Positions 3,892 to 25,599 of a DNA stretch of 43,027 nucleotides are shown here, in pieces (the first letter of the stretch is position 1; each line of letters starts with the position of its first letter). The stretch is taken from the IMG/VR virus record IMGVR_UViG_3300002461_000046, positions 1 to 43,027 of that record. One strand, given 5' to 3'. Below the pieces are notes generated by a model. That model was not told the DNA's origin, did no database searches, and saw nothing but the letters and a program-made list of their open reading frames with translations. Origin of the DNA: a virus. The position numbers and the translations under genes are program-made.

Positions 3892-4245
3892 ATGGAACAG
3901 ACCAAGAATCTTGGTACAGCGGACGGGATTGCAGAAGCTCTGCTTTCCTTGTCCGGTTCTGACTTAGCTCAGATTCCGCACTCTCTTCTTTATAACGCAC
4001 GTTATAGAGTTCCCAAAGAGCAGCAGAATCTGATCAGCCCGTACGAGCATAGGGCTTTTGCTAGAGAAGCAACTCTAGAGAATCCTATGATGGCTCTGCC
4101 TATTGCAGCATCTGTAATCCCCTATCAGATATACAAAGCTGTTGATGGCAGTAGCCGCTCTACTCCTTCTATTGACCAAGTTCTCCAAGGCTTCATGGGA
4201 GTAGGAGAAGGTCTAGTAGGTGCAGTTAAAAACACAATGCGTTAA
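3892..4245 (+). CDS. Hypothetical virion-module protein, 117 aa
   Basis: ORF with AAGGAAAG RBS, tightly packed in the late operon. Confidence 0.65.
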   Translation: MEQTKNLGTADGIAEALLSLSGSDLAQIPHSLLYNARYRVPKEQQNLISPYEHRAFAREATLENPMMALPIAASVIPYQIYKAVDGSSRSTPSIDQVLQGFMGVGEGLVGAVKNTMR

Positions 4246-6309: not shown

Positions 6310-9300
6310 ATGGACATCCTATTCCCTCGGGAAGAGAGCTTTGATACTGAGATCAACTCTGGTCTCATTAGCAATACTTCTGACTCGCAGACTAACATTC
6401 TACAATCACTGACTGGTGGTATTACTGCAACCGCAGTAGACATTGGTGCCTCTATTTGGAACAGTCTCCCAGGTACTGATGAAGTGCAGACAGAGGATCT
6501 TCTTGGCCGTATTAGTGGTGATGCACTCCGTATCTACCAAGAGAATCCTGATACGATCAAGACAGCTTCTCTTATTGGTGGCGCCATTCTTCCCGGTGGC
6601 TTGGCTGTCAAAGGTATGCAAGCTATGCGTAATGGCTCTAAGGCCGTTAACTGGTTTACTACTGCCGGTAAGAAGCGTGATGTGGCTGCCGCAGCTGAGC
6701 TGTTTGCTAATGGAGCTAAAGACTCTACTAAATACAAGCAGCTTATCTGGGGTATGCGCGGCAAGACCGTAGCTAATCAAACTGCTGATGCAGTAGCTGC
6801 TGAATTGGCCATCTTGGGTACCATGAATGCTCATAGCTACATGGAAGATTACATGGATGATGGCCTTTCTAACTTTGCCTTGAGCGTGGCTCTTGGCGGA
6901 GGTATTGGCTCGACCTTTGGTCTGATCTCTGATGCATATCAGCTCAGAAAAGCCACTAGCGCAGTGGAAGCTTCTACGTTTGAGACTATTCTCGGCGCAG
7001 TCAAGCCAGTTGGCCCTGCTATGCCAGAAGCTACGAAGGTACAGACTCTTGGCTTGAACGTCAAGAATCTTAACAACATTATCGAAGGTCGTAAGGCCGC
7101 TGGTAAGACTGAGTTCGATGATCTTACCTATGGCTATGCTCTCAAGACTCAGCGTGAGATGCAGAAAGAGCAGCTTGAGATCTTCGATGCCATGCTTGAT
7201 TCTGAATTGAAAGGCTTGGATCAGGCTGCTAAGCTGCGTCTAATGGATACAGTTAATAGTGGCGAAGGGTTCTGGGGAGTAGAGAAGATCAAGAGTATCA
7301 CTGCTCCTGAACTTATGTCTATGGGCAAGATGAATAACTTGCTGATGAACGAGCCTGTGCTTAAGGCCACTAATAGACTGGGCGACAAGGAATCAGTAGA
7401 GAGTGTGTTCTTTCCTGAGACTGGACAGTTCGGTACTAAGAAAGATGTGCAGCACTATGGTGGCATGTCTGCTCTTAATCTAACTGAAAAGGATCTTATT
7501 AAATCACTGCCTAAGAACAGCAGTGTGCCTAACTTCGAGTATTCATTTGAAGCTTTGGCCAAGTCTACTCCAGCAGTAGAAGCAGAATATGCTGCATGGA
7601 TTACCAAGTTCTCAAAGCTTGATGACGATGCCATGCAGGAGTATCTGGCTAAAAGCCTTGTTAGCGCCAGTGACATTCCTCAGGTCCAGGCTTTGGCTGC
7701 TAGGATTAACCAGTCTGATGTACTTCGCAATACTGCTAAGGTCAAGATCGCTGATCGTGCGCAGCAGGCAGAGGCTATTATTGACGAAGTTAATATTCAA
7801 CGCACACTCGGCGGCACTCCTGTCAAGTATCAGGAAGCTGCTGAGCGCCTGTTGAACAACTCTACTGTTAGCAGTAAATATGACATTATGCAGACTCGCG
7901 GTCAGGGTACTGCTCATGATATGCTTCGCTCTTGGAAAGCAGGCTCAGGTGTGCTTGCTATGCACAAGGCAGCTGTGGCTTACTTTGCGCGTGGATATGC
8001 TAAGAATGCACGTAACACTGATGACATGGCATTGGCTGAGAAGTTCGCAGAAGTCTATGAGAGTGCTGAGTCTATTCAGCTTCGCAAGGATCTTCTGTCT
8101 ACTTTGGCAGATGCTGATGGTAAGATCTATGCTTATCGTGGCGTCAATGCTCCTAAGATCTTCGGCCAGAATCCGGTCGAGTCTATGGCAGTGACCGTAG
8201 GTAAGGCAGGTCAGTTCACTGGAGCTAGTGGCAAGACTATGCTTTATAAGATTGACGTAGATGATGTGGTCGCAGCTATCAAAGATATTGGGCCATCAGG
8301 AGATAACATAGAACTTCTTGTCCGTGCATCGGCTCGTGAAGCTGAGGCTGTCCTGTCTACAGATGGTCGTATTGCGTTCCGCAAGCAGATGGAGAATTCG
8401 CTTAAGAAACCTGCTGTTGCTTATGAAGCCCGGCTGGGTGATCTCAATGATTATCTATCTGAGAACAAGTTCTCTCTTGTCACTTCGCTTATCGCTAAGG
8501 GCTATCCGCCTGCTGTGATCGCTAAGCGGGCTAATATGCCTGAAACATCTGTAAATCAGTTTATTGCTTCTGCACGTGACTTGGATGCTTTTGAAGCTCT
8601 GCCAGACATTAACACGTTCAAGAAGCTTGAGGATGTGGAAGCTGCTAATGCTGTGACCAATCGCCCTCTGCAACTGTCCGGGAATTTGAAGAAAGAAGTC
8701 TATACTAAGGGTGCAGCTAACCTGAATGCCCGTACTCTTACTAACATCGATGGAGCTTTCAAGTCCATGACTATGATGAACTCAGCTTCGGCTGCTGTTC
8801 GCAAGCTTGGACAATTCTTCTTTAGTGATATGAAAGAAGGACTTGATGTAGCACGAATGAACCTTGCTAAGATTACCAACGAATCGGCTGGTAATCGCTT
8901 CATCACGTCTGCTGATCAGGCAGCTCGTAATATGGGAGAACTGGGTCCTATCTTCTCGATGGTAGGTAAGCAGATTCAGAACATTGCTAACGAGGTGGAG
9001 ACTGCTACTCTGAAGCCTATCAGCGAATTCATGTCCACTGTGTCTAAGGATGTGGCTTCTCTGACAGAATACTCTGTGGCTCATAACCTGAATGCAGGTC
9101 TGAGCGGCTGGAGAATTTATAAGGACAAGCAGTTTTGGCAAAAGGTTGAGAAGCTGGGAGAAGATGGTAAGCCGGTAACTGTACTGGAACCGGTAACTTA
9201 TAATGGCAAACCATTCACTGTTGTCACGGAAGGGACGGATCAGCTTCTTACGCAAATGCAGAATGCGTCTAAAGAGTTGTATGAACTCTCATCTGTATCT

Positions 9301-11610
9301 AGGAGAATTACTGGCTCTGCTAATCTTAGCGACATTGGCCTCTGGATTCCTTCCTTTAATCCTGTAGATAAGTTCATTGCTTATGTACACAACAGGGCTT
9401 CGGATACTACCCAGATGCTGTGGGGCAAGACCAAGGCTGAACTTGATGATGCTATTAGAACCTTCACACCAGAGCTTCAGAAAGACCCTAACCTGCTGAT
9501 TGTCACTAAAGATAATCAGGCATGGTGGAGCAAGCTGAACGGACGCCTGGATACTGTAAACATGAAGCGTGCTGATGTCGGCATGACTAAGACAGGTACT
9601 GGCGCATCTGCTATTCCTAAGATTTCTACTGACATTCTTGCAGAGACTGCCGGTGGCTATCAACATTATATCAATGCTCAAGTTAGGAACCTGTCTGATC
9701 TGGCCTTATCTGATATTACTGATACGCTGGATAACTTCTCAGCTATCAACAAGTCTGCTACGGAAGGACAGACTCTGAGTTTTGTTCGTAGTATCACGCA
9801 GGCTCCTAAAGATGCAGCTGCGTCTATGAAGAACCTGTTGATTGGTAATCCTTCTCTCGGTGAATACGAGGGCTGGAGGAGCATTAACAAGAGCTTTGAA
9901 ATCGGCCTGTCTATGGGTGCCAATGCAGTAGGTAAAGCATTTGAACTTGCTGCTGCTCCTCGGTTTAAGAACCCCTTCAGTTCTAAGAAGCCTATGGCTG
10001 CTGAGGATATGAAGGGCTTCAACTACGATAAGTTCTCAGAAGAGCTTAACAAAGCTGGAGTGGTTAATCCATTCGAAGTCTACGACAGGGCAGTGGCTAT
10101 TGAGAAGTATGGCGTGTCTACTCTCTTGGATACTCCTGATACCAGCAAGCGTATCGTGACTGCATCGAACGCATTGGCTGCTACGATTGCTCTTAGGTTT
10201 GGTGAATTGGCTCACCCTATTGTCAACCTCATGAGTATGCCTATCTTAACTTCTCTCGCTAATAGCAAGGCTATGCCAGAGACCTTCATGGGAATTGCTA
10301 AAGGAACAGCTAAAGTACCTACTACGCAGATTATGTTTGAAGGTGTCCGGGCAATGAACTCTCCACGATATGCTTCCTTGAGCAGAAAGTGGGAAGAGCT
10401 TGGATACTACAAACCTCTGGTCTCAGAAGCATCCGAAGTTCTGCGAGCATCACGGGCATTTGAGAAAGGTGCAATTTCTACTATTGAGAACGCGCTAGAC
10501 TCTTCGTTTGTGGCTATGCTCAGTAAGCCTGCTGATTATTCTGAAGCTCTGAGCCGTAAGATGATGATGCACACTGGAGCCGTGCTGGCCAAGAGACTCT
10601 ATCCTGAATTGTCCGATAATGGCGTAACGATCTTTGCTCGTGATTTCATGGATAAGGCACTAGGAAACTACACAGCTTCTCAGCGGCCTGTGTTCTTTCA
10701 GGGGACTATGGGAGTGGCTATGGGCCTGTTTCAAACCTACATGCTGACGCTTGCACAAGGAGTCTACAGGGCTGCGGAGTTGAAGGATTTCGCCACGCTG
10801 GGAAAAGCTGCTATGGCCCAGACAAGCATCTTTGGAACCAGCTCTCTGCCGGGTTTCGATCCTATCAGCAAGGCTATTGCAGAGAATTTCTCTGATGATA
10901 ACGTAGACTTGACGACAGGAACATTTCGTGCTCTTGGAGATACTGGAGCTAGTTACACTCTTTATGGACTGCCAAGCAACTTGACTGGTGCTGCGTTCTA
11001 TACTAGGGGTGACATTGATCCACGCTTTCCGAACGTACTAGCAGGTGCTGATCAAGTAGTGGCTGTGAACATGGGCATTCAGATGGCGCAGGCTATTGGC
11101 TCAGTAGGTAAAGCAGTAGCTAGTGGGGACCAGGATACTGGCCAAGCTATTCTACAAGCCCTGAGTTTACAGTCTATGAGCAGGCCATTGGCCCGAGGTG
11201 CTGAGCTTTTGTCTGATTACAGCATGACTCGTGCAGGTAACACTGTACAGAATGCTGAAGAAGTCTGGAGCTTTACTGGAGTAGCAGCTAGAGTTATGGC
11301 ATTGCGTCCTATGGAAGAAGCTAAGCTCAGGGAAGCACAGCATCTGAACCAACACTACGGATCAGTGGACCGAGACAATAGGCAGGCGGTAGTTAACAAG
11401 CTGCGGACTGCTATCAGGAATGGTAGTGTAGATTCTGAAAGGATTGCAGAGTGGGCTGAGGAATACTTTAGAAATAATGGTACTCCTACAGGATGGCGGT
11501 CAGCATATAAGAATGCAATTGCCAAGACTGACATGAGTGGTAAGGAAGCTCTCATGGACAAGCTCAGGGATGATGACCCTCTGAACTTTATGATAAACAA
11601 TCTGGATTAA
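6310..11610 (+). CDS. Giant virion protein candidate, 1766 aa (internal core / ejection protein by position)
   Basis: Uninterrupted 5.3-kb ORF, the last gene of the plus-strand arm, followed by a terminator. No catalytic motif securely recognised. Confidence 0.55.
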   Translation: MDILFPREESFDTEINSGLISNTSDSQTNILQSLTGGITATAVDIGASIWNSLPGTDEVQTEDLLGRISGDALRIYQENPDTIKTASLIGGAILPGGLAVKGMQAMRNGSKAVNWFTTAGKKRDVAAAAELFANGAKDSTKYKQLIWGMRGKTVANQTADAVAAELAILGTMNAHSYMEDYMDDGLSNFALSVALGGGIGSTFGLISDAYQLRKATSAVEASTFETILGAVKPVGPAMPEATKVQTLGLNVKNLNNIIEGRKAAGKTEFDDLTYGYALKTQREMQKEQLEIFDAMLDSELKGLDQAAKLRLMDTVNSGEGFWGVEKIKSITAPELMSMGKMNNLLMNEPVLKATNRLGDKESVESVFFPETGQFGTKKDVQHYGGMSALNLTEKDLIKSLPKNSSVPNFEYSFEALAKSTPAVEAEYAAWITKFSKLDDDAMQEYLAKSLVSASDIPQVQALAARINQSDVLRNTAKVKIADRAQQAEAIIDEVNIQRTLGGTPVKYQEAAERLLNNSTVSSKYDIMQTRGQGTAHDMLRSWKAGSGVLAMHKAAVAYFARGYAKNARNTDDMALAEKFAEVYESAESIQLRKDLLSTLADADGKIYAYRGVNAPKIFGQNPVESMAVTVGKAGQFTGASGKTMLYKIDVDDVVAAIKDIGPSGDNIELLVRASAREAEAVLSTDGRIAFRKQMENSLKKPAVAYEARLGDLNDYLSENKFSLVTSLIAKGYPPAVIAKRANMPETSVNQFIASARDLDAFEALPDINTFKKLEDVEAANAVTNRPLQLSGNLKKEVYTKGAANLNARTLTNIDGAFKSMTMMNSASAAVRKLGQFFFSDMKEGLDVARMNLAKITNESAGNRFITSADQAARNMGELGPIFSMVGKQIQNIANEVETATLKPISEFMSTVSKDVASLTEYSVAHNLNAGLSGWRIYKDKQFWQKVEKLGEDGKPVTVLEPVTYNGKPFTVVTEGTDQLLTQMQNASKELYELSSVSRRITGSANLSDIGLWIPSFNPVDKFIAYVHNRASDTTQMLWGKTKAELDDAIRTFTPELQKDPNLLIVTKDNQAWWSKLNGRLDTVNMKRADVGMTKTGTGASAIPKISTDILAETAGGYQHYINAQVRNLSDLALSDITDTLDNFSAINKSATEGQTLSFVRSITQAPKDAAASMKNLLIGNPSLGEYEGWRSINKSFEIGLSMGANAVGKAFELAAAPRFKNPFSSKKPMAAEDMKGFNYDKFSEELNKAGVVNPFEVYDRAVAIEKYGVSTLLDTPDTSKRIVTASNALAATIALRFGELAHPIVNLMSMPILTSLANSKAMPETFMGIAKGTAKVPTTQIMFEGVRAMNSPRYASLSRKWEELGYYKPLVSEASEVLRASRAFEKGAISTIENALDSSFVAMLSKPADYSEALSRKMMMHTGAVLAKRLYPELSDNGVTIFARDFMDKALGNYTASQRPVFFQGTMGVAMGLFQTYMLTLAQGVYRAAELKDFATLGKAAMAQTSIFGTSSLPGFDPISKAIAENFSDDNVDLTTGTFRALGDTGASYTLYGLPSNLTGAAFYTRGDIDPRFPNVLAGADQVVAVNMGIQMAQAIGSVGKAVASGDQDTGQAILQALSLQSMSRPLARGAELLSDYSMTRAGNTVQNAEEVWSFTGVAARVMALRPMEEAKLREAQHLNQHYGSVDRDNRQAVVNKLRTAIRNGSVDSERIAEWAEEYFRNNGTPTGWRSAYKNAIAKTDMSGKEALMDKLRDDDPLNFMINNLD

Positions 11611-11624
11611 GAATCAGATTGACG

Positions 11625-11663
11625 TAAAAAAGCCCCTTGGATTTAGGTCCTTGGGGCTTTTTC
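11625..11663. terminator. Bidirectional rho-independent terminator where the two arms converge
   Basis: aaaaaAGCCCCttGGATttagGTCCttGGGGCTtttt. A-run upstream and T-run downstream. It lies between the + gene ending at 11610 and the - gene ending at 11666. Confidence 0.65.
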
Positions 11664-11665
11664 TT

Positions 11666-11929
11666 TTAGAGTGCGAACACTTCTGCGTAAGTCTTTTCCA
11701 TAATCTGTGGATCAAGACCATACATCTGTGGAGTAATAGTGCGTTTGACTTCTCCTAGTACCCACAACTCCATAACCTCAGCTACAGAATTATGCCGCCA
11801 GCCTGAAAACTTCTTCTTCTTAAGTTCTGAGGAAGTTGCAAAGTCGTTATGATCGCTGCGCTTATAGTGCTCAGTCAGTGCGTTACGATCAAACTTCTGA
11901 TAGGAACTACGCTCGTTTGAATTTGCCAT
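11666..11929 (-). CDS. Hypothetical protein, 87 aa
   Basis: ORF with AAAGG upstream of the ATG. Last gene of the minus arm. Confidence 0.7.
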   Translation of the reverse strand: MANSNERSSYQKFDRNALTEHYKRSDHNDFATSSELKKKKFSGWRHNSVAEVMELWVLGEVKRTITPQMYGLDPQIMEKTYAEVFAL

Positions 11930-12401
11930 AGCTGCCTTTCAAAATAGCTTTGAGATTCTTTCTAGACTTCTCATCAGGAGAGATACCATAAGCAGATAGG
12001 CCAAACTCCACATCAGCGAAGAATGCTTCAAATTTTCTATCTTCACAGACTATCCTATCTACTCTCTCACGAATAATGTGAAAGTCTTTCTGCATTTGTT
12101 CAGGCAAAGTAGCAAGCACTGCAATAGGAATTCTGTAATGCGCGTTCTCAGAATTCATTGGATGCTTAGGATCTTCTGGCTTAATCAAGTTACCTTCTTC
12201 TTTATGTCCACTCCAAGGAAACCAACCACTGTTTATGTTCCAATAGCCTCCTTGCTTTGTTTTGAAAGAAACAGCATTCCAAGGTACGCAGCCATTAGTA
12301 GCTACTTGCCAAGTACCCCCTTCCTCGGTGGCATAGTGGGTTACTTCATCTGTGGTATAACGAAGAGTCTTTAAGACTTCGTCTAAATTATAAACGCCCA
12401 T
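11907..12401 (-). CDS. Hypothetical protein, 164 aa. Start moved to MGVYNLDEV.
   Basis: The tracked ORF 11907..12515 overlaps the DHH gene. The internal ATG at 12401 is preceded by AAGGAAGAGAG and lies just downstream of the DHH stop. Confidence 0.65.
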   Translation of the reverse strand: MGVYNLDEVLKTLRYTTDEVTHYATEEGGTWQVATNGCVPWNAVSFKTKQGGYWNINSGWFPWSGHKEEGNLIKPEDPKHPMNSENAHYRIPIAVLATLPEQMQKDFHIIRERVDRIVCEDRKFEAFFADVEFGLSAYGISPDEKSRKNLKAILKGSYGKFKRA

Positions 12402-12447
12402 ACTCTCTTCCTTTCTTTGATACTTGGTTTGAAAAGCAAGCCTATGT

Positions 12448-13464
12448 TTAAGACTTCGCCAAAGGGTGGTCCCTGGGGACTCTGAATCCTGCTGCATGTT
12501 TATGTCCTCCTCCATTGTAGTATTTAGCTATCTCAGAAACATCCATGCCATTATCACAACTGCGCAAGCTAAAGATACGATGGGTTGCAGTATCCCAATA
12601 GCAAGCAGCAAATTCCGTCCCTTCTTTGTGAGCTGCTGCCATTGCGTGGCCAGCATCGGAAGTAAAAGTGTAAGGCAAACTAGCAGCAGGAACAGTAATA
12701 GTATCAGCGTACTTGTGACCAGCAGATTCGAATGGATCATCTCTAAGAATCGTGAAGTCCATGGGCCGTTGGCATACATTCAGAAGCTCCTTAATATCTT
12801 TGTGGTGCTTACGCTCAATGGCTGCACCAGCATTCCACATTCCAAGAAGCTCAGTAGCCGAAGCATTCATGAGCTTGTCCCAGTTCTCAAATGTATATTC
12901 ATAAGAGAATACGTTTGCTTGAATCTCACGAGTACCTGCTAGCTTAAACTTCCAGAGGTCACGATCTTGCACATGTTCCAGAAGTTTAGGCGGAACTTTG
13001 TAATAGGAACTATCTGAAGTAATGCAGTGCTCAAATGCTAAAGGATTGTCGCCAGCAAATTGAGTGTTATGCAAATAATCCCATGCAAGGATAGCACCAC
13101 TACGTTCTAGATCAGTGTACTTATAGAAGTTCTTATGGTTCAGTTCTGCAAGATCATCAATTGCAGTCTTATGGTGATCGATCAAAGTAATAGCCTGTGC
13201 TGTCTCCAGCATCTTCTCTACTACATCTCTTTTATAACTAAAATCAACAAGATAAACAATACGATCTGTAACATCTGGAGGCGGGTCATTATACACTCCC
13301 GGATGAAAGTCGAAGTCCATGCCCCAATCTGCCTGCACTTTCCAGAAGCACCATGCAGCTGAGAATCCATCAGCACAGTTAGCATGGTAGATTACGAGAG
13401 GATTCAAATTCTTAGGCTTCTCTAGCGGAAGCGCATTATCTAGGTTTACCATAAAGTCTGTCAT
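12448..13464 (-). CDS. DHH/DHHA1-family phosphoesterase (NrnA/RecJ-like), 338 aa
   Basis: Motifs in order: IYHANCADGFSAA (motif I), VYLVDFS (II), LIDHHKTA (DHH), GGGHKHAAGF (DHHA1 GGGH). AGGAG RBS. Confidence 0.85.
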   Translation of the reverse strand: MTDFMVNLDNALPLEKPKNLNPLVIYHANCADGFSAAWCFWKVQADWGMDFDFHPGVYNDPPPDVTDRIVYLVDFSYKRDVVEKMLETAQAITLIDHHKTAIDDLAELNHKNFYKYTDLERSGAILAWDYLHNTQFAGDNPLAFEHCITSDSSYYKVPPKLLEHVQDRDLWKFKLAGTREIQANVFSYEYTFENWDKLMNASATELLGMWNAGAAIERKHHKDIKELLNVCQRPMDFTILRDDPFESAGHKYADTITVPAASLPYTFTSDAGHAMAAAHKEGTEFAACYWDTATHRIFSLRSCDNGMDVSEIAKYYNGGGHKHAAGFRVPRDHPLAKS

Positions 13465-13488
13465 ATCAGCTCCTATTAGTTTCTAAAA

Positions 13489-13755
13489 TTAGTAATAAAC
13501 TACTTGCCAATCTTCTGCAAAAAGATCACCTTGACTGGGCGCCCAAGGCACGTAGCCTCCTTGAGCGTTTTTAATATATATATAAGGCTGGGTCATAAGC
13601 GAGTGCTCATCAGGTTCTTGCATAAGAACCCACTGACCTTTTCCATTCCAGCCAGCCCGCTGTAGCTTATGTCCTTCTTTAAGAAATACTAAAGCCTGCC
13701 CAAAATTAATACCCTGCACCTCTTCATCTACATGATCTATCGAACTATCATCCAT
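13489..13755 (-). CDS. DUF2829-family protein (the family that contains Thoeris anti-defence Tad2), 88 aa
   Basis: FGQALVFLKEGHKLQRAGWNGKG ... PYIYIKNAQGGYVPWAPSQGDLFAEDWQVV matches the remembered DUF2829 signature (GWNGKG, PW..SQ.DLLAEDW). TAATG junction with the upstream gene. Confidence 0.85.
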   Translation of the reverse strand: MDDSSIDHVDEEVQGINFGQALVFLKEGHKLQRAGWNGKGQWVLMQEPDEHSLMTQPYIYIKNAQGGYVPWAPSQGDLFAEDWQVVYY

Positions 13756-15014
13756 TATATCAGCTCCTGTTCAGTTAACCAACTATTATCAAGAAGATGC
13801 TCAGGCCATTCCTTCTTGGTCTTATGCATGGGCAAGTACCCACTCTTTCCGCCAACGCTAACAGCTTGTATCTTCTCAGAGTGTTTGAGGTTCTGAAGAA
13901 TGTCAACAAGCTCGGACATTTTACCAATGTCTCTACTAATCACACGAAACAATTCCCCCGGAGTCTGCGGCTTATGGCAGCCTGAGAGATAGCTGAGAAG
14001 CTTACCTGCTACAGAGGAATACTTAGAAGCACCAAACTCTCCCAATGCCCTAGGCATAACTCTCTCTGCTCGTGCTAGTAGGGAGTTAGCTCTCCTGATG
14101 TGAATAGGGAGAATCTTATCGGACATATCAAATACTGCAAGTAGCATAGATACTTTTAGCAAGTGAGTAAATCGTCGTTGCTGGTAGTGGATAAAACGTG
14201 GGTCATCTACTGGAATCTCGTTATCATAAATCTCCTTGCCAATAGCTTTGGCTTCTTTGGTTACAACAATCTCTCCACTGATAGCATCTCTTACTTCGAT
14301 CATCCTGTTAACTAGCGTGGCTTGCAATAGCGGGTCAGGTGCAGTAGGCCATGCAACTTTGTTAGAAGTAGGATCAGCATGAAGCAACACAACACGAGAG
14401 AGGAAGCCATTGCCTAGAGCTTCTGGTGGAAAGGCTAGTGCAAATCCATCAGGAGTGTTAGCCCCTAGCAAGTTAACAGTAGGCTTGTGGACCATCACAC
14501 TCTTGCCCTGAATCTTAGGATGTGTGTATTCTCCTAAGTTATCCCAGAGATTAGTCAGCAGCGTAATGAAGTCCATGTTACCTTGGCCAATAAAGTCTGT
14601 GAACTCTCCTGACATGATGTAAGATTCTGAGGGATCACCGAAAGCTAGGTCCTCTACATCCTCAAGAGCCGCGTTCGTAGGCAGATCAAACTGTTTCATG
14701 TCCATAAGGAAGCGCTCTTTAGAAGTCTTGTCCGCTGAGAATCTATTGAACCCTGTAGCTTTTAGAAGTCTCCTGCCAATGGCCATAGCAGCACCCTTAC
14801 GAGTACCAGGTGAGCCCATCAGCATGATGTATTGGTTAGGATATATTGGCCCAATACCAAAGTCTATCCATACCTTGCGCCCCATATAAGCACCAAGAAT
14901 ACTAAGACACACCCATCTATGATAGATAGCTGGCGCCTCAGAATTATCCAGATCGCAAAGACGCATGTAAGAACTAATAAAGTCATCTTGAATCCTGATA
15001 GGGTTGTGCGTCAT
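13755..15014 (-). CDS. P-loop ATPase, putative VirE/D5-like (SF3-type) replicative helicase, 419 aa
   Basis: Walker A-like LMGSPGTRKGA and hydrophobic-D VVLLHAD. ATGA overlap with the DNA polymerase stop. The position is typical of the helicase/primase partner in PolA modules. Confidence 0.5.
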   Translation of the reverse strand: MTHNPIRIQDDFISSYMRLCDLDNSEAPAIYHRWVCLSILGAYMGRKVWIDFGIGPIYPNQYIMLMGSPGTRKGAAMAIGRRLLKATGFNRFSADKTSKERFLMDMKQFDLPTNAALEDVEDLAFGDPSESYIMSGEFTDFIGQGNMDFITLLTNLWDNLGEYTHPKIQGKSVMVHKPTVNLLGANTPDGFALAFPPEALGNGFLSRVVLLHADPTSNKVAWPTAPDPLLQATLVNRMIEVRDAISGEIVVTKEAKAIGKEIYDNEIPVDDPRFIHYQQRRFTHLLKVSMLLAVFDMSDKILPIHIRRANSLLARAERVMPRALGEFGASKYSSVAGKLLSYLSGCHKPQTPGELFRVISRDIGKMSELVDILQNLKHSEKIQAVSVGGKSGYLPMHKTKKEWPEHLLDNSWLTEQELI

Positions 15015-17305
15015 TTCAGCCCTTTGTATTTCCTAGTTCCGTTAGGGTTAGACTCATCTGCCTCGCCCCAATTCTGTCCATACTTAATGTCAATAGGAAT
15101 GACTAGAGTACGTCCATGAATCTTGACGGGATTATACATACAGTCTGCGAGCCTTCTTGCGAACTCATCCCTCCTATTGATCCGCCATTGTCCAAAGATA
15201 CTGTCATGGATTTGAGCTTTGATTCGAAAGTCTCCATCACTTGGTAGAACAATGTCTCTGTAGGCTCTAACGAATCCTCTGTTGAGAATCTCGACGCTGA
15301 GCTGCTGCGGCTGGTGTGCAACTGCCCCTCTAAGCATACTGTGGTTACGGTCAATATCTCCAAAGAATCTCCTTGTATGTCCAAGTGGACTGACAAGGTA
15401 GCTTGTTGATTTGATCTCATTCTTAATCTCCTGATACCACATACGAACACGAGGGAAAGGACTATGATAAAGATCAAGAAGCTCTTTGGCAAAACCTTTG
15501 AGCGTTCGTTGATTCTTATTGTTAGCCTTGACAATATCTACAATCTCCAAGCCTAGCTTGGCAGCAGTCTGATACAGAATCCTTGCGCCGATGTTCTCAA
15601 TGAAAGTTCCTGCGCCCATCATGTAGTTGGTGCCGTGGACAATCTTCTTGAGCACCTTGTTCCTAAAGAAGTCATCAACCTCTTCATAAGGCATACGAAA
15701 GAACAAGGTTCCTAGCGTACGATAGAAGTCTTTCTCTGCATCTTCAAGCGCCGCGATGAGAGCTTCTTCCTGAGAGCAGTAGGCAGTGGTCCTTCCTTCA
15801 GACTGCTTGTTATCTGCTTCGAAGATTTCAAATCCTTCATCAGCAATGAGCATTGGTTTAGCATATCCCGGAATATTCTGGACTTGCGTTCCAACCCACA
15901 AACTAGAAGCTGAACATGCCATCCTGCTAGTGTCTGTTCCGAATGGATTAAGCGCCCAGAGAAGGCGGCCTCTCCATTGCAAGAAATCATAATAGGTCCC
16001 AATGGCCTTCTGACTACCACGATACTCCAAGATTTCTTCGCAAATACGTGCAAGCAAGGGGTGCTGCTCAGAGACAGCTTTAAGGTTCTTCTCATCCGTA
16101 CCTGACTTACTCTTTCCAATCTTTGGCTTCTTCGCACCGAATACATCGTAGACATACTTCTCTACCTGCTGCCAGCTACCTGGATTAAAGTTAGGGTCTG
16201 CAAACATTGTCTGCAAACGATTCATTGCTTCTTGCAAACGAATATCAGCTGCGGTTCTGAGTTCTACTCGCTTCTCTTGATCTATCTTGATTCCTTCGAA
16301 GTTAGAGTAGAGCGAGGGATAGACAAGAGGGAACTGCTTCTTGTAGTTGGTGAACGTATAAGCCTGCGACTTACGCAGTTGCTCGATCAGAATCCTTGCA
16401 GTGTACCAAGTATCCTTAGCGTTGTATGCCCAATACTTCTCTTGGTCTTTCTTCTTAGCGGCCTGCTCTGCATCATCCTTCCAGAATACGTAATCGTACA
16501 GGGTGTATGATGCTACGAAATCAAGGCTCTTAGGCAATTCAGAATACTCTGAGTGCGCCAAGTACATGGTGTCGAGAGTGTAATGATGCGGCTCGCAGTG
16601 GTAGCGGATCAAGTGCGTAGCATCATACATGCCATTGTGCATAGCCTTGGCAATAGACAGAGCATTGGCAGAGCGCATGAACTTGATGGCTGCAATATAG
16701 TCTCTGTCATCAGGCCAATGGTCACCATCATAATCAATGAGAGGCAGGACATAGGTCTTGAGCGTGCCGTCAGCATATACTCCAGTCCAGCCTGCGCAAG
16801 TGATAAGCGTAGGTCCACCCTCCAGCTCCGTAGGTCCGGGCAGAGTCTTAGTCTCAATGTCATGAGAGATAACAATAGCTTGTGAGAGTTCTTCTAGAAC
16901 AGAAGCCATTGCATAGCGGTCAAGAATCTTCTTGTAGGAAAAGGGCGTAGGTTTCCTATAGATGCTCTTGAGCTTAGTAAGGTCGCGCTCTAGCAGCCAG
17001 TCACCATGAGGTACTGTGTGCATATGAGCCAGCTTGTTGATAATGATAGTAGGCAATTCAAAGTTGAGCCTAGTACCACGCCATTTATCTACAGTAGGTG
17101 CTTCCCCCGGCACCAAGTAGCGAAGAGTCTGTTCGTTGTTGCAGACAATAGCAGAGCAGCCAGCCAGCTTAGCCTTGTGCATCAGTTCGCCAATAGTCAG
17201 GTTCATAGAACTAGACACTGCGTCAATGCCAAGACGACGGAACATATAGGCTATGCCACCAAGATAATCCTTCTCGGATTTTTCGTAGTTCAGGAGAACT
17301 CGCAT
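15011..17305 (-). CDS. Family A DNA polymerase with 3'-5' exonuclease domain, 764 aa
   Basis: Exo I-like SHDIETKT. Motif B-like KKIVHGTNYMMGAG. Motif C KAQIHDSI. Size and domain order fit PolA. AAGGAAG RBS. Confidence 0.9.
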   Translation of the reverse strand: MRVLLNYEKSEKDYLGGIAYMFRRLGIDAVSSSMNLTIGELMHKAKLAGCSAIVCNNEQTLRYLVPGEAPTVDKWRGTRLNFELPTIIINKLAHMHTVPHGDWLLERDLTKLKSIYRKPTPFSYKKILDRYAMASVLEELSQAIVISHDIETKTLPGPTELEGGPTLITCAGWTGVYADGTLKTYVLPLIDYDGDHWPDDRDYIAAIKFMRSANALSIAKAMHNGMYDATHLIRYHCEPHHYTLDTMYLAHSEYSELPKSLDFVASYTLYDYVFWKDDAEQAAKKKDQEKYWAYNAKDTWYTARILIEQLRKSQAYTFTNYKKQFPLVYPSLYSNFEGIKIDQEKRVELRTAADIRLQEAMNRLQTMFADPNFNPGSWQQVEKYVYDVFGAKKPKIGKSKSGTDEKNLKAVSEQHPLLARICEEILEYRGSQKAIGTYYDFLQWRGRLLWALNPFGTDTSRMACSASSLWVGTQVQNIPGYAKPMLIADEGFEIFEADNKQSEGRTTAYCSQEEALIAALEDAEKDFYRTLGTLFFRMPYEEVDDFFRNKVLKKIVHGTNYMMGAGTFIENIGARILYQTAAKLGLEIVDIVKANNKNQRTLKGFAKELLDLYHSPFPRVRMWYQEIKNEIKSTSYLVSPLGHTRRFFGDIDRNHSMLRGAVAHQPQQLSVEILNRGFVRAYRDIVLPSDGDFRIKAQIHDSIFGQWRINRRDEFARRLADCMYNPVKIHGRTLVIPIDIKYGQNWGEADESNPNGTRKYKGLK

Positions 17306-17334
17306 GACTTCCTTAATAGTTATGTTGAACAGCA

Positions 17335-17385
17335 GGCAGAATAAATGAGACTGCCTTCGACCAGCTTGTGACCAGTAGAAGGCAG
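17335..17385 (-). promoter_or_regulatory. Structured leader upstream of the DNA polymerase gene, with alternative hairpins
   Basis: 8-bp stem ctgccttc (17351-17358) / gaaggcag (17378-17385). The same central segment can instead pair with ggcag (17335-17339). Lies in a 100-nt gap in an otherwise gapless operon. Confidence 0.35.
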
Positions 17386-17405
17386 TAGCGTTACTCTGTT
17401 AGAGC

Positions 17406-17873
17406 TTAGCCTTTAGGATCAACGTGCAAGGGGCGGACATTGATGTTGTCATACTCTTTGCCGTCAGCAGCCTTCGTCTTACGGACAGTGATAGCACAAT
17501 CGAACTCGGTATTCGTGAGTCCATCAAACACTTCACGCATCTTCACGCCATCAAGATCAGGCACGTTCAGAATTTTCATAGCCTGCTTCTTGAAGTATTC
17601 GAGGCCTTCTTCTGTAGCTTGAAAGCGATCATTGAACAGTGAGCCATTAGGGAATGGAGCTTCCTCTGATTCCATGGTTTCCAGAATAGAATAGGTGATA
17701 GAAAGACCAATGACTTCTTTACCCTTTTTGTCCTTGCGTTTCTTGGTGCCAGCTTCGGTGACTTTCAAACGATAGGTTCCTTTAGAAGGAGTAACGTAAT
17801 CAGGCAGAGTAGCCACTGCACCCATGTCGGTGTCAAGCAATGCGTCGAGGTCGAGGATTTGAGCGTTAGACAT
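17406..17873 (-). CDS. DUF669-like protein (SSB-like partner of Sak4-type ATPases), 155 aa
   Basis: Acidic N-terminus (LDLDALLDTD) followed by LPDYV..GTYRLKVTEA. Adjacent to the Sak4-like ATPase, as in known AAA_24-DUF669 pairs. Confidence 0.5.
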   Translation of the reverse strand: MSNAQILDLDALLDTDMGAVATLPDYVTPSKGTYRLKVTEAGTKKRKDKKGKEVIGLSITYSILETMESEEAPFPNGSLFNDRFQATEEGLEYFKKQAMKILNVPDLDGVKMREVFDGLTNTEFDCAITVRKTKAADGKEYDNINVRPLHVDPKG

Positions 17874-17917
17874 AATGATTCCTAGATGAAAATGAAATGA
17901 AAGTTGAAAAGCTAATG

Positions 17918-18859
17918 TTATTTAGCAGGTGTTGCGGCCTTGGAAGCTGCAATTCTCTCGGCCAATGAGAGTGCAGATTTGCTCTCCACAGCATTCTGTT
18001 CTTGTGGAACTTGAGCTGCTTCAGCAGATGGAGCTTTGAGAACTCCACCGGATACTAAAATGTCAAACATAGAAGGTTCTTTTGAATTCTCCAATGCTAC
18101 GTTAATACGAGAGCCTGTAAGCAAGTCCCCTCTGTAGGTGGAAGAAGAACCAGCTACGTGCTTATTCATCTTCTTGTGGACATAGACTACGGTACCAAAG
18201 AACTTAGCAACCTTCTGGCAGAATTGCTTAGAGCCCATAAGAGGACCGATCTTGTCTTTGCCCTCGTCATCTTCGAATGCTACTTCGTGAGTAATAACCA
18301 CAAAATTCGTATTAGCGCACTGCTGAATAACAGAACACACATCACCAAGCCACTTATTGACCATGCCATATTCGTCGAAGGTAGGCTTAAACATATTCGG
18401 TTTACCCAGACAAGCGGCAGCCAAAGCAGAATCGCCAAGCTGAGAGCCTGAATCAATGACAACAAGATCATCATGAGTGCAACCTCCTAAGTGGAACTTG
18501 ATAAAACCACTGCCTGCCTTCTTACATTCTGCGCAATCTACTCGGCCATGCAGTTCGCAAAGATCAACAGGCACCTTAGAGGTAAAGGTCTTGAGGACAG
18601 TCTCAATGCCAATAGGATTATCACGAGTGTCGGAGACTTTAATCACAATGATCTTAGCCAGCTCCTCGTCAGACAGTCCCGCATTAAGCAGAGTCTCAAC
18701 ACCATTCTCTAGGTCGATCCAAAAGATACGCTTGAGTTGTGCAATCTTAGCAGCAGTGCCTACCAGCTTTGTCTTGCCAGCCTTAGGTGGGCCGTACAAG
18801 AGAATGGAATGGTTAGGCTGAACTCTAGCTGTAGCTTTCTTAAGTTGAAGAAGGTCCAT
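17918..18859 (-). CDS. Sak4-like / AAA_24 RecA-fold recombination ATPase, 313 aa
   Basis: Walker A LLYGPPKAGKTKL and Walker B LVVIDSGSQL. Size and neighbourhood (DUF669, PolA). Confidence 0.8.
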   Translation of the reverse strand: MDLLQLKKATARVQPNHSILLYGPPKAGKTKLVGTAAKIAQLKRIFWIDLENGVETLLNAGLSDEELAKIIVIKVSDTRDNPIGIETVLKTFTSKVPVDLCELHGRVDCAECKKAGSGFIKFHLGGCTHDDLVVIDSGSQLGDSALAAACLGKPNMFKPTFDEYGMVNKWLGDVCSVIQQCANTNFVVITHEVAFEDDEGKDKIGPLMGSKQFCQKVAKFFGTVVYVHKKMNKHVAGSSSTYRGDLLTGSRINVALENSKEPSMFDILVSGGVLKAPSAEAAQVPQEQNAVESKSALSLAERIAASKAATPAK

Positions 18860-19157
18860 CTTGTTGCATCCTTTTTAGAATAGCTTCGTTCTGAAAACGA
18901 AACAGTGTTTTAATGTCAGCTTCCATCTTTAGCAGGTCAAACTTGATGGGATCAAGCGCATTCAAAATGGTAGCTATCTGTAGAGATACTGCTCGGCCTT
19001 CGTGTCCCATCTGCCCTAGATTGATAACACTCATGCAACTTGCAATAGCTTTAGCATAAAGGTCACCCTCTCTGGCAACAAAACCTTCTAGCACCTCTAC
19101 CATAGTATTCTCGAAGTGAGAATCAGGATCAGGATTATCAGCATTAAGGAGTGTCAT
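18840..19157 (-). CDS. Hypothetical protein, 105 aa
   Basis: ORF overlapping both neighbours by 14-20 nt, which suggests translational coupling. Confidence 0.65.
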   Translation of the reverse strand: MTLLNADNPDPDSHFENTMVEVLEGFVAREGDLYAKAIASCMSVINLGQMGHEGRAVSLQIATILNALDPIKFDLLKMEADIKTLFRFQNEAILKRMQQDGPSST

Positions 19158-19653
19158 CTTTATTCTCAGGCAGCAGGCTAATCAGCAGCTCACGAATCTT
19201 AGGCTCTGGCTTCCAGTAGTTAGGACCCTTCATGAACTTACCCTGCTCATTGTAGATAGGCTTACCATCTGCACCGAGCTTGGACTCATTGCTTTTCATA
19301 ATGATTTCTAAGACCTCAGAATTGGGAATACCGAAGCGAGCCATCTCAGAAGCACAGTAGACTTGAATGTCCCCGAGAAGATCAGCTATCTCTACCAATG
19401 CATCCATAGTAGAACACTCTGCATCTAGCTTATCAATGATAGCCTTATGCTCGTCTAGCTCGTCTTTAAGGATACCTCCGAAGAAATCCTGCAGGCGCTT
19501 CATTACAAGCTCGATGCCTTCTCTAGATTGATAAGCAGGGAAGGTTTTAACTTGCCACTTAATCTCTTCTTGAAAGCTGGGAGTGGCTGCAATAGGCAAG
19601 TTATACATGGCGTTCATGCCAAGGATTGCCAACTCAAAATTAAACTTTCTCAT
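19144..19653 (-). CDS. MazG-like all-alpha NTP pyrophosphohydrolase, 169 aa
   Basis: Acidic metal-binding helices ELDEHKAIIDKLD ... DALVEIADLLGDIQVY, then MKSNESKLGADGKP...GKFMKGPNYWKPEP, typical of phage MazG/COG4696-type proteins. Confidence 0.65.
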   Translation of the reverse strand: MRKFNFELAILGMNAMYNLPIAATPSFQEEIKWQVKTFPAYQSREGIELVMKRLQDFFGGILKDELDEHKAIIDKLDAECSTMDALVEIADLLGDIQVYCASEMARFGIPNSEVLEIIMKSNESKLGADGKPIYNEQGKFMKGPNYWKPEPKIRELLISLLPENKDDTP

Positions 19654-25588: not shown

Positions 25589-25599
25589 TTCAAATCTCC

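What the first reader, a model, noticed from the sequence alone, without database searches (positions are those of the whole stretch)
11666..13755. Possible sponge-plus-hydrolase counter-defence islet at the end of the early/middle arm
The last four genes of the minus arm are DUF2829, DHH phosphoesterase and two ORFans (164 and 87 aa). They follow the replication genes and precede the convergent terminator, a location typical for accessory cargo. A signal-binding protein next to a phosphodiesterase would be a two-layer strategy against nucleotide-second-messenger immunity: sequester and degrade. The functional link is inferred from adjacency only.
Basis: inference. Interest (0 to 1): 0.65.

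Follow-up and report, generated by a model that had tools for sequence, protein, structure and literature searches.

The report
Tad2-like sponge inserted beside backbone DHH
A small anti-immunity "sponge" gene (Tad2-like) was recently inserted next to a conserved phage phosphoesterase gene at the end of the replication operon; this operon end collects anti-Thoeris cargo in related phages, but the sponge and the enzyme are not a conserved working pair.

Summary
The four genes are real. They are Tad2-like/DUF2829 (13489-13755), a DHH/DHHA1 phosphoesterase (12448-13464), a near-ORFan (11907-12401, possibly starting at 12497) and an 87-aa gene (11666-11929). A strong bidirectional terminator follows.

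They are not one unit. In 10 syntenic relatives the primase gene is followed by DHH, directly in 9, and orf87 is also conserved. None of them has Tad2.

The window's Tad2-like gene is a 294-nt insertion exactly at the primase/DHH junction, flanked by a 15-nt duplication. It keeps the ADPR-signal pocket residues of solved Tad2 proteins. It lacks the insertion that forms the cyclic-dinucleotide pocket.

Co-occurrence is rare. No other DHH clade-A locus (0/86) has Tad2. Only 3/240 Tad2 loci (2 lineages) have DHH nearby, and no cultured phage shows the adjacency.

However, anti-Thoeris-type genes recur close to DHH genes. These are Tad2-like in two other lineages, Tad3 in L009, and RyR-domain proteins in relatives L008/L034.

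So the operon end is an accessory hot spot with anti-Thoeris cargo. The coupled "sequester and degrade" idea is unsupported. The function of DHH remains open.

The parts
13489..13755 (-). Tad2-like (DUF2829) gene, 88 aa. It is a minimal 'short-form' member and recently inserted cargo. Its start ATG overlaps the primase stop codon (TAATG).
   Evidence: PF11195 E 1.9e-26. PDB Tad2, ModTad2, HgmTad2 and SPO1 Tad2 at E 3e-13 to 4e-11. Invariant W36, N37, W71 and D77 and nearly invariant S74. Absent from all 10 syntenic relatives.
13757..13771 (.). Upstream copy of the 15-nt junction duplication (minus strand AACAGGAGCTGATAT). It carries the ribosome-binding site now used by the Tad2-like gene.
   Evidence: the repeat finder. 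Alignment with L003 and L005, where the primase stop overlaps the DHH start with no insert.
13463..13477 (.). Downstream copy of the 15-nt junction duplication (minus strand AATAGGAGCTGATAT). It provides the ribosome-binding site and start context of DHH. Start-to-start spacing of the two copies is 294 nt, which equals the insert.
12448..13464 (-). DHH/DHHA1 phosphoesterase, 338 aa. It is a backbone gene of the replication operon. Motifs: H27, C30-A-D32, D74, D96-H97-H98, D167/D169, G318-G-G-H321.
   Evidence: phrog_4771 E 1e-92. 6581 homologues. Invariant motifs in 39 sequences. AF2 pLDDT 90. Foldseek to NrnA, TM1595, GdpP, DhhP and PggH. Follows primase in 10/10 relatives, directly in 9.
11907..12401 (-). 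Variable accessory gene of unknown function. It is 164 aa from the ATG at 12401, 196 aa from 12497, or 202 aa from 12515.
   Evidence: Homologue only in L005 among the syntenic loci fetched here. Its homologue P0156 is recorded on a contig of the same length (12,975 bp) as DHH homologue P0008, so a further relative may carry it. 3 proteins in 5.8 billion. 5 in 1.84 billion representatives. No Pfam, PHROG or NCBIfam hit. AF2 pLDDT 56.
11666..11929 (-). orf87, a conserved backbone gene of unknown function. It is not an ORFan.
   Evidence: Homologues in all 10 syntenic relatives at E 4e-50 to 5e-8. Homologue in PaP2 gp28 at E 3e-5. No family hit.
11627..11662 (.). Bidirectional intrinsic terminator hairpin between the convergent arms.
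   Evidence: Sequence. Folding gives -21.3 and -20 kcal/mol, with 0/200 shuffles as stable.
13755..15014 (-). DUF3987 primase (context). In relatives its stop codon is the ancestral neighbour of the DHH start.
   Evidence: PF13148 and phrog_14296 E 1e-86. Synteny.

Best explanation
The region is the distal end of a conserved replication operon, polA-primase-DHH-orf87-terminator. Two accessory genes have been inserted into it, one on each side of DHH.

(1) A 294-nt cassette encoding a minimal Tad2-like protein landed exactly at the primase/DHH junction. It duplicated 15 nt that include the ribosome-binding site, so both genes remain translated from the operon transcript. By homology, the protein should form a homo-oligomer (a tetramer in solved Tad2 proteins). 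It should sequester TIR-made ADPR-type immune signals (3'cADPR/2'cADPR or His-ADPR) in pockets lined by W36/N37, W71, S74 and D77. This would blunt Thoeris-type defence. It lacks the long beta2-beta5 insertion that forms the cyclic-dinucleotide pocket in HgmTad2.

(2) A near-ORFan (164-196 aa) sits between DHH and orf87.

The DHH protein is a two-metal DHH/DHHA1 phosphoesterase with an NrnA/NrnB-like fold, inherited vertically with the replication genes. Its most likely job is hydrolysis of short oligonucleotides or dinucleotides (nanoRNA, primer remnants, pNpN) for nucleotide recycling and replication. It is not a partner of the sponge.

The operon end is an insertion hot spot that, in this lineage, repeatedly captures anti-Thoeris-type cargo.

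Shown: gene identities by homology, the insertion architecture, the synteny, and the rarity of co-occurrence. Inferred: ligand, oligomer state, DHH substrate, hot-spot mechanism.
For: Architecture:
- Primase is followed by DHH in 10/10 syntenic relatives: directly (overlapping or within 43 nt) in 9, and with an unrelated 102-aa gene between in L006. None has Tad2.
- L003, whose DHH is 83% identical, has the primase stop overlapping the DHH start. The window has a 294-nt insert flanked by a 15-nt repeat at that point.
- The closest Tad2 homologues (56-59% identity) lie in unrelated contexts, such as between portal and capsid or among small early genes.
- Neighbours of 80 Tad2 loci fall into 615 clusters, so there is no fixed partner.

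Sponge:
- PF11195 and PDB matches.
- Pocket residues map onto HgmTad2 W21/N22 and S90/D93 and onto SPO1 W25/W73.
- The beta2-beta5 insertion is about 10 aa, against 24 in SPO1 Tad2 and 41 in HgmTad2.

DHH as backbone or metabolic gene:
- Present in 11/11 lineage members.
- In the more distant PaP2, the slot after primase holds a MazG-like pyrophosphatase.
- Elsewhere DHH sits beside ThyX, RNR, ligase, methylases, Sak4 and NinB.
- Fold relatives are NrnA, TM1595, Rv2837c and GdpP.
- The nearest viral folds include giant eukaryotic viruses.

Hot spot:
- L006 has an unrelated 102-aa gene at the same junction.
- Variable genes lie between DHH and orf87.
- RyR-domain proteins occur in L008 and L034.
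Against: - Anti-Thoeris-type genes cluster close to DHH genes in several unrelated lineages.
  - Tad2-like is immediately upstream of a distant DHH in 9 loci of the L112 clade. It is again an insertion there, since L179 has ThyX directly followed by DHH.
  - Tad2-like lies 0.9 kb from DHH in a Novosphingobium prophage (L319).
  - Tad3 lies 9 nt downstream of DHH in L009.
  - RyR or Tad3 homologues lie within 6 kb in L069, L087 and L188.
  - Given presence within the locus, 4 of 7 independent cases (window excluded) lie within 1 kb of DHH. My rough binomial p is about 0.02.
- The DHH clade is highly conserved (45-60% identity) across otherwise unrelated phages. That pattern fits a mobile auxiliary gene as well as it fits a housekeeping one.
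- No experiment exists for any member of this clade.
- Iyer et al. (PMC7824862) had already predicted that phage DHH phosphodiesterases counter cyclic-nucleotide signalling.
- No short-form Tad2 is known to me to have been tested. Loss of the alpha2 region could change its oligomerisation.
Confidence: 0.55

Rival explanations
1. Tad2-like and DHH form a coupled two-layer module against the same nucleotide-messenger immunity. The sponge sequesters the signal and the phosphoesterase degrades free or released signal.
For: The two genes are adjacent and co-transcribed in the window. The same Tad2-then-DHH order is seen with a distantly related DHH in the L112/L227 lineage. The two genes are near each other in L319. 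There is a precedent for an enzyme inserted into, and synergising with, an evasion operon: RyDEP in NARP1 (PMC13232231).
Against: 0/10 syntenic relatives and 0/76 other clade-A DHH loci have Tad2. Only 3/240 Tad2 loci (2 lineages) have DHH nearby. No adjacency was found in 50,697 cultured phage records. In both lineages DHH pre-existed and Tad2 was inserted. The sponge lacks the CDN pocket, so its predicted ligands are ADPR-derived. These have glycosidic and pyrophosphate bonds, which are not known DHH/DHHA1 substrates (PMC13232231).
Confidence: 0.1
2. DHH is itself a counter-defence enzyme, independent of Tad2. It would be a phosphodiesterase that destroys cyclic or linear oligonucleotide signals (CBASS, type III CRISPR, c-di-AMP) or another NAD/ADPR-related metabolite. 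It would mark an anti-defence island around which further inhibitors accumulate.
For: Tad2-like, Tad3 and RyR-domain genes recur close to DHH in at least 5 unrelated lineages. The density of RyR/Tad3 homologues is about 10 times higher in DHH-anchored loci (6 per 1.15 Mb) than in Tad2-anchored loci (1 per 1.9 Mb), with a rough p of 0.01-0.03. Fold relatives Rv2837c, GdpP and DhhP hydrolyse cyclic dinucleotides. There is a prior prediction in PMC7824862, which also cites a DHH-DHHA1 nuclease that degrades cA4. The clade is highly conserved yet found in very different phage backbones.
Against: DHH is fixed in all members of the lineage at a replication-operon position. It is replaced by a MazG-like enzyme in PaP2. 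Its usual neighbours are DNA-metabolism genes. Close structural relatives exist in giant viruses of eukaryotes. Only 1 of 144 immediate neighbours in clade-A loci is a known anti-defence family. The enrichment tests are post hoc, use small numbers, and are confounded by host range and by the queries having been taken from DHH loci.
Confidence: 0.28
3. The DUF2829 protein is not an ADPR-signal sponge here. The short form might have a different role, for example AcrIIA7-like Cas9 inhibition or another ligand.
For: AcrIIA7 and HgmTad2 are DUF2829 proteins. The window protein lacks most of the beta2-beta5 insertion, which in SPO1 Tad2 contributes helix alpha2 to the dimer interface. T92 of HgmTad2 is Gly here.
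Against: The pocket residues W36/N37, W71, S74 and D77 are conserved across the short-form subfamily. Yirmiya et al. argue that the family is anti-Thoeris rather than anti-CRISPR. Relatives carry other anti-Thoeris-type genes in the same region.
Confidence: 0.1

Closest known systems
Tad2 sponges (SPO1 gp34.65, ModTad2, HgmTad2/AcrIIA7, SptTad2; Pfam PF11195)
   Same: Same domain, with E 1.9e-26 to Pfam and about 1e-13 to solved structures. Similar size of about 90 aa. Conserved GWNG and W...SQxD pocket residues that bind gcADPR. A mobile accessory gene found in many phage types.
   Different: The insertion between beta2 and beta5 is only about 10 residues, against 24 in SPO1 Tad2 and 41 in HgmTad2. 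The cyclic-dinucleotide pocket of HgmTad2 (R31, S47, F70, N85) is therefore absent, and the alpha2 dimer contact of SPO1 Tad2 is doubtful. HgmTad2 T92 is Gly76 here. Ligand binding is untested.
Stand-alone DHH/DHHA1 phosphoesterases: NrnA/Rv2837c (CnpB), TM1595, GdpP catalytic domain, DhhP, PggH, NrnB (COG2404)
   Same: Two-domain DHH plus DHHA1 fold (Foldseek probability 1.0). DHH triad, motif II and IV aspartates, and the GGGH motif are present. JGI names some homologues 'oligoribonuclease NrnB/cAMP/cGMP phosphodiesterase'.
   Different: Only 11-16% identity. Below the Pfam gathering scores and far below the NCBIfam NrnA cut-off (18 against 350 bits). Motif I is C-A-D with an invariant Cys instead of DxD. 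This is a virus-specific clade (phages, jumbo phages, giant viruses) with no biochemical data.
Anti-signalling gene-acquisition hot spot next to the primase in N4-like phages (bioRxiv 10.64898/2026.06.04.730250)
   Same: A variable region adjacent to a primase gene that accumulates Tad2, Tad3, Acb4, Sequestin and RyR-type inhibitors. Here Tad2-like (window) and RyR-domain genes (L008, L034) sit downstream of the primase.
   Different: A different phage group, related to Polaromonas phage Tiera and to PaP2/119X-type podophages, not N4-like. The hot spot here is the operon end around DHH and orf87 and holds only 1-3 small genes.
RyDEP inserted in the NARP1 operon (PMC13232231)
   Same: A Thoeris-evasion gene inserted into a pre-existing enzyme operon. 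It was discovered by comparison with a close relative that lacks the insert.
   Different: There the insert is the enzyme and it feeds the host operon's pathway, a synergy that has been demonstrated. Here the insert is a sponge, and no metabolic link to DHH is known.
Known signal-degrading anti-defence enzymes (Acb1 2H-PDE, Apyc1 MBL, AcrIII-1 ring nuclease, Acb5)
   Same: If rival 2 were true, DHH would work like these, by hydrolysing a nucleotide immune signal.
   Different: An unrelated fold. None of them appears among the structural matches. DHH is lineage-fixed rather than patchy.

Membership tests
Tad2 / DUF2829 (PF11195) sponge family | Significant match to the family profile above its curated threshold | tested here: met
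   92.9 bits against a cut-off of 25, E 1.9e-26, covering profile positions 2-73 of 73.
Tad2 / DUF2829 (PF11195) sponge family | Sequence similarity to experimentally solved Tad2 proteins | tested here: met
   8v3e Tad2 E 3.2e-13, 9eib ModTad2 2.5e-13, 8kbi HgmTad2 1e-11, 8sme SPO1 Tad2 4e-11.
Tad2 / DUF2829 (PF11195) sponge family | gcADPR-pocket residues (HgmTad2 W21/N22, S90/T92/D93; SPO1 W25/W73) | tested here: met
   W36/N37, W71, S74 and D77 are aligned and are invariant or nearly invariant in 33 homologues. T92 corresponds to G76.
Tad2 / DUF2829 (PF11195) sponge family | Homotetramer with inter-protomer pockets; nanomolar binding of ADPR-derived signal; inhibition of Thoeris | not testable with these tools
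   Needs protein biochemistry and phage assays. The short beta2-beta5 region makes the oligomer state uncertain.
CDN-binding Tad2 subtype (HgmTad2/SptTad2) | Long beta2-beta5 insertion (about 41 aa) with R31, S47, F70 and N85 forming the cGG/cGAMP pocket | tested here: not met
   The insertion is about 10 aa. R31 aligns with Q46, N85 aligns with a gap, and the S47 region is absent.
DHH/DHHA1 phosphoesterase superfamily | Catalytic motifs I-IV (DxD, D, DHH, D) and the DHHA1 GGGH motif | tested here: met
   D74, D96-H97-H98, D167/D169 and G318-G-G-H321 are invariant in 39 sequences. Motif I is the variant C30-A-D32.
DHH/DHHA1 phosphoesterase superfamily | Pfam DHH (PF01368) and DHHA1 (PF02272) above their gathering scores | tested here: not met
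   16.7 against 28.1 bits and 23.5 against 25.9 bits. The clade is divergent, and membership rests on PHROG, motifs and fold.
DHH/DHHA1 phosphoesterase superfamily | Two-domain DHH plus DHHA1 fold | tested here: met
   AF2 pLDDT 90.1. Foldseek E 7e-10 to 1e-7, probability 1.0, to NrnA, TM1595, GdpP, DhhP and PggH.
NrnA equivalog (NCBIfam NF053633) | Score above the equivalog cut-off | tested here: not met
   18.4 bits against 350. It is not an NrnA orthologue.
Conserved sponge-plus-hydrolase gene pair | Co-occurrence of DUF2829 and this DHH clade in related phages | tested here: not met
   0/10 syntenic relatives and 0/76 other clade-A loci within +-6 kb.
Conserved sponge-plus-hydrolase gene pair | Co-localisation above chance across unrelated phages | tested here: inconclusive
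   3/240 Tad2-anchored loci, representing 2 lineages. 9/26 clade-B DHH loci, representing 1 lineage. No adjacency in 50,697 cultured records. Rough expectations of 0.04-0.85 events give p between about 0.001 and 0.2, depending on assumptions.
Phage signal-degrading anti-defence enzymes | Demonstrated hydrolysis of an immune signal, or homology to Acb1, Apyc1, AcrIII-1 or Acb5 | tested here: not met
   No such structure is among the listed top 50 PDB fold matches. Enzymatic activity is not testable here.

The most novel reading that the evidence does not exclude
The virus-specific DHH/DHHA1 clade (invariant Cys in motif I; present in phages and giant viruses) is a hydrolase of nucleotide or NAD-derived immune signals or their products. 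It would act as the anchor of anti-Thoeris islands, so that Tad2-like, Tad3 and RyR-domain genes are repeatedly recruited beside it because they act in the same conflict.
Probability: 0.2. Interest if true: 0.75.

Novelty: new member of a known kind. Interest (0 to 1): 0.4.

Why it matters
The result separates backbone from cargo in an uncultured podophage. It gives a dated, base-pair-resolved example of how a sponge gene is slotted into an essential operon through a junction duplication that copies the ribosome-binding site.

It identifies a 'minimal' Tad2 subfamily that should bind only ADPR-type signals. It shows that the end of the polA-primase-DHH-orf87 operon is a hot spot for anti-Thoeris-type cargo in this lineage.

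The recurrent proximity of Tad2, Tad3 and RyR genes to a widespread viral DHH phosphoesterase of unknown function is a cheap, testable lead. If the enzyme acts on immune signals, it would add a new enzyme class to phage counter-defence. If it does not, it is a useful marker for anti-defence hot spots.

Tried and rejected
- Megablast of 11000-18000 against phages found no match, so all comparisons are at protein level.
- A single-protein locus search gave only 9 loci. I replaced it with an alignment-based search.
- The paper search for 'DHH' plus anti-defence returned only a false hit, 'DHHS' in an acknowledgement. PMC12730640 is not held.
- The chimeric Tad2+DHH tblastn reported 5 records with at least 80% coverage. 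The two that appear in the listing (H125, H129) are single DHH alignments that run into the Tad2 part, not true pairs, and no listed row shows a genuine pair; the other three were not listed.
- The orf164 AF2 model has pLDDT 56, too poor for a fold search. Its profile hit P0158 is a compositionally repetitive 842-aa protein and is not meaningful.
- No junction duplication could be found for the older L112-clade insertion.
- NCBIfam gave no usable name for any of the four genes.
- The 1766-aa convergent protein has no PDB sequence match. Records annotate it as a structural or ejection protein, and nothing links it to N4 vRNAP.
- I considered RecJ-like ssDNA exonuclease for DHH. I rejected it as the primary model because the best fold matches are the stand-alone NrnA/GdpP type, and a separate exonuclease (20006-20902) and a Sak4 gene exist in the window.
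Full report
**1. Observation**

The minus-strand arm ends with four ORFs:
- 13489-13755 (88 aa)
- 12448-13464 (338 aa)
- 11907-12515 (202 aa from the first ATG, 164 aa from the ATG at 12401)
- 11666-11929 (87 aa)

They lie downstream of a family-A DNA polymerase (15011-17305) and a DUF3987 primase (13755-15014).

On the other side, a 1766-aa structural protein gene (6310-11610, + strand) converges on them. Between the two arms is a hairpin at 11627-11662 with an A-run on one side and a U-run on the other. It folds at -21.3 and -20 kcal/mol on the two strands, and 0/200 shuffles are as stable. The description in the finding is therefore correct.

**2. Identities**

*The 88-aa protein.* It matches Pfam PF11195 (Tad2-like, formerly DUF2829) at E 1.9e-26. 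It matches solved Tad2 proteins at E 2.5e-13 to 4e-11: ModTad2 9eib, Tad2 8v3e, HgmTad2/AcrIIA7 8kbi, and SPO1 gp34.65 8sme.

I mapped the published ligand contacts onto it.
- HgmTad2 W21/N22 correspond to W36/N37.
- SPO1 W73 / HgmTad2 W87 corresponds to W71.
- HgmTad2 S90/T92/D93 correspond to S74/G76/D77.
- W36, N37, W71 and D77 are invariant, and S74 nearly so, in 33 homologues.

By contrast, the segment between beta2 and beta5 is only about 10 residues (EPDEHSLMTQ). It is about 24 residues in SPO1 Tad2 and about 41 in HgmTad2, where it builds the cGG/cGAMP pocket. The pocket residues R31, S47, F70 and N85 have no counterparts here.

So this is a minimal Tad2 that should keep only the ADPR-signal pocket. 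This short form is common: 55 of 80 viral loci carry the PD..S.M motif.

*The 338-aa protein.* It belongs to phrog_4771 'DHH phosphoesterase' (E 1e-92). It scores below the Pfam thresholds and far below NCBIfam NrnA.

It has 6581 homologues, many on 40-47 kb contigs. An alignment of 39 sequences shows invariant H27, C30, D32, D74, D96-H97-H98, D167/D169 and GGGH318-321. Motif I is C-A-D rather than DxD.

The AF2 model (pLDDT 90) matches these stand-alone DHH/DHHA1 enzymes at 11-16% identity:
- mycobacterial NrnA/Rv2837c
- T. maritima TM1595
- GdpP catalytic domain
- DhhP
- PggH
- Pde2

Among viral models, the nearest are DHH proteins of jumbo phages and of giant eukaryotic viruses such as Marseillevirus, Klosneuvirus and Pithovirus, at TM about 0.7.

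*The 164-aa protein.* It has no family hit. It has only 3 relatives in 5.8 billion proteins and 5 in 1.84 billion representatives. The model is unreliable. The residues upstream of the 164-aa start are conserved in homologues, so a 196-aa product is possible.

*The 87-aa protein.* It has no family hit, but it is conserved (see section 3).

**3. Synteny: backbone and cargo**

The closest cultured relative is Polaromonas phage Tiera. More distant relatives are EBPR podovirus 3 and the PaP2/119X podophages.

I compared Tiera and nine metagenomic relatives (L003-L008, L016, L017, L034).
- The order in all of them is polA-primase-DHH-...-orf87-like, followed by the convergent structural gene.
- Primase is followed directly by DHH (overlapping or within 43 nt) in 9 of the 10. 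In L006 an unrelated 102-aa gene lies between them.
- None of the 10 encodes a Tad2-like protein.
- The closest relative, L003, has a DHH that is 83% identical. It reads ...GAGCTGATATGA..., with the primase stop overlapping the DHH start.
- At that point the window carries a 294-nt insert. The insert is flanked by a 15-nt direct repeat (14/15 identical; 13757-13771 and 13463-13477). The repeat includes AGGAG and the start context.

The Tad2-like gene is thus a recent, precise insertion into an ancestral primase/DHH junction.

The nearest Tad2 homologues (56-64% identity) lie elsewhere, between portal and capsid genes or among small early genes.

orf87 has homologues in all ten relatives and in PaP2 gp28. 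In PaP2 the gene after primase is a MazG-like pyrophosphatase instead of DHH.

orf164 occurs only in the window and L005 among the loci I fetched. Its homologue P0156 is recorded on a contig of the same length (12,975 bp) as DHH homologue P0008, so a further relative may carry it.

**4.

*DHH-anchored loci.*
- 86 other clade-A loci (+-6 kb) contain no Tad2-like ORF.
- Their neighbourhoods are very diverse: integrase, methylases, ligase, RNR, Sak4, ParB, NinB and nucleases.

*Tad2-anchored loci.*
- I examined 240 loci: 80 viral, 80 metagenomic and 80 from genomes.
- Only three contain a DHH.
- L112 and L227 are one lineage with the order ThyX-Tad2-DHH.
- L319 is a Novosphingobium prophage. DHH is at 2184-3062, Tad2-like at 4001-4240, and an integrase-like gene at 4528-6030.

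*Cultured phages.* A tblastn with a chimeric Tad2+DHH query against 50,697 records found no genuine joint match among the listed records.

The pair is therefore not conserved.

**5. What complicates a flat rejection**

- In the L112 clade, 9 of 26 loci carry Tad2-like immediately upstream of a DHH that is barely alignable with the window's. L179 has ThyX directly followed by DHH. So this is a second, independent insertion just upstream of a DHH gene.
- A Pfam census of 144 immediate neighbours of clade-A DHH genes found one Tad3 (PF25185, E 3e-31). It is L009:6951-7442, 9 nt after DHH.
- In the window's own lineage both junctions flanking DHH, and the stretch after orf87, hold variable small genes. 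L006 has an unrelated 102-aa gene at the primase/DHH junction.
- L008 and L034 encode RyR-domain proteins (PF02026, E 3e-11 and 6e-11) after orf87. This is the family of the RyDEP cADPR glycosidase/sponges (PMC13232231).
- Further RyR or Tad3 homologues lie 2.7-5.4 kb from DHH in L188, L087 and L069.
- Rough, post hoc estimates:
  - Given presence in the locus, 4 of 7 independent cases (window excluded) lie within 1 kb of DHH, against 17% expected. This gives p about 0.02.
  - RyR/Tad3 density is about 10 times higher in DHH-anchored loci than in Tad2-anchored loci, with p about 0.01-0.03.
- These numbers are small, and they are confounded by host range and by the queries having come from DHH loci.

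**6. Interpretation**

The best-supported picture has three parts.
- The backbone is a polA-primase-DHH-orf87 operon.
- Its distal end is an insertion hot spot. In this lineage it captures anti-Thoeris-type cargo: Tad2-like in the window and RyR-domain genes in L008 and L034. A comparable anti-signalling hot spot next to the primase has been described for N4-like phages (bioRxiv 10.64898/2026.06.04.730250).
- The Tad2-like protein most likely sequesters TIR-derived ADPR signals.

The DHH enzyme is most simply a nanoRNase-like oligonucleotide or dinucleotide hydrolase that belongs to the replication and nucleotide-metabolism module. A role in degrading cyclic-nucleotide signals has been predicted for phage DHH proteins (PMC7824862) and cannot be excluded.

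A mechanistic 'sequester and degrade the same messenger' link is unlikely for two reasons. The sponge lacks the CDN pocket. ADPR-derived signals are not known DHH/DHHA1 substrates.

My confidence differs between the two parts. For the architecture (backbone plus inserted cargo) it is about 0.9. For the housekeeping reading of DHH it is about 0.55.

**7. Novelty and score**

- The sponge is a new, short-form member of a known family.
- The DHH is a member of a known but uncharacterised viral clade.
- The insertion scar and the hot spot are useful but not surprising.
- The recurrent proximity of anti-Thoeris genes to DHH is the one lead worth an experiment.
- Interest: 0.4.

Noticed in passing
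L009:6013-7442: In a 77.7-kb viral contig, a clade-A DHH gene (46% identical to the window's) is followed after 9 nt by a Tad3 homologue (PF25185, E 3.4e-31). Tad3 is a ThsB-binding Thoeris inhibitor. An ATP-dependent DNA ligase lies upstream.
   Followed up: partly
L112:655-2766 (also L168-L175, L177, L227): The order ThyX - Tad2-like - DHH occurs in a GC-rich phage lineage of about 70 kb, with a DHH only distantly related to the window's. Relative L179 has ThyX directly followed by DHH. Tad2-like was therefore inserted just upstream of DHH a second time.
   Followed up: yes
L319:2184-6030: Novosphingobium sp. FSW06-99 prophage end: DHH (33% identical), then about 0.9 kb, then Tad2-like (PF11195, E 1.6e-27), then an integrase-like gene.
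   Followed up: partly
L008:7557-7949; L034:7200-7553: Syntenic relatives of the window encode RyR-domain proteins (PF02026) after the orf87 homologue, before the convergent terminator. This is the family recently reported to degrade or sequester cADPR Thoeris signals. More RyR-like ORFs occur in L069:1-474, L188:1988-2335 and L106:13912-14247, and a Tad3-like ORF in L087:11029-11250.
   Followed up: partly
L006:5162-5470: An unrelated 102-aa gene with no family hit occupies exactly the same primase/DHH junction where the window has Tad2-like. This suggests a recurrent insertion site.
   Followed up: partly
window 13374-13376 (codon of C30 of the DHH protein): Motif I of this DHH clade is C-A-D-G with an invariant cysteine where DHH enzymes, and the clade-B phage DHH, have DxD. 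This may indicate a changed metal site or specificity.
   Followed up: no
window 12402-12515: The 38 codons upstream of the 164-aa start overlap the DHH 3' end and are conserved at protein level in homologues P0156, P0157 and P0159. The public collection calls a 196-aa product. The true start is unresolved.
   Followed up: partly
window 12448-13464 (model m9e3700654270): The closest predicted viral structures include DHH phosphohydrolases of giant eukaryotic viruses (Marseillevirus, Klosneuvirus, Pithovirus, Lausannevirus; TM about 0.7, 20-27% identity). The clade therefore spans phages and nucleocytoplasmic large DNA viruses.
   Followed up: no
L358 (PaP2 25259-26149): In Pseudomonas phage PaP2 the slot after primase holds a 296-aa MazG-like pyrophosphatase instead of DHH. 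The window has its MazG-like gene elsewhere (19144-19653).
   Followed up: partly
window 17918-18859, 20006-20902, 25600-27618, 21061-21552: Other arm genes: a Sak4-like annealing protein, an exonuclease, and a Dda-like helicase. There is also a 163-aa protein hitting PHROGs oddly labelled 'phosphofructokinase' (phrog_474/1167, E about 1e-23). Two ORFs have no PHROG hit: 435 aa (28973-30280) and 217 aa (24577-25230).
   Followed up: no
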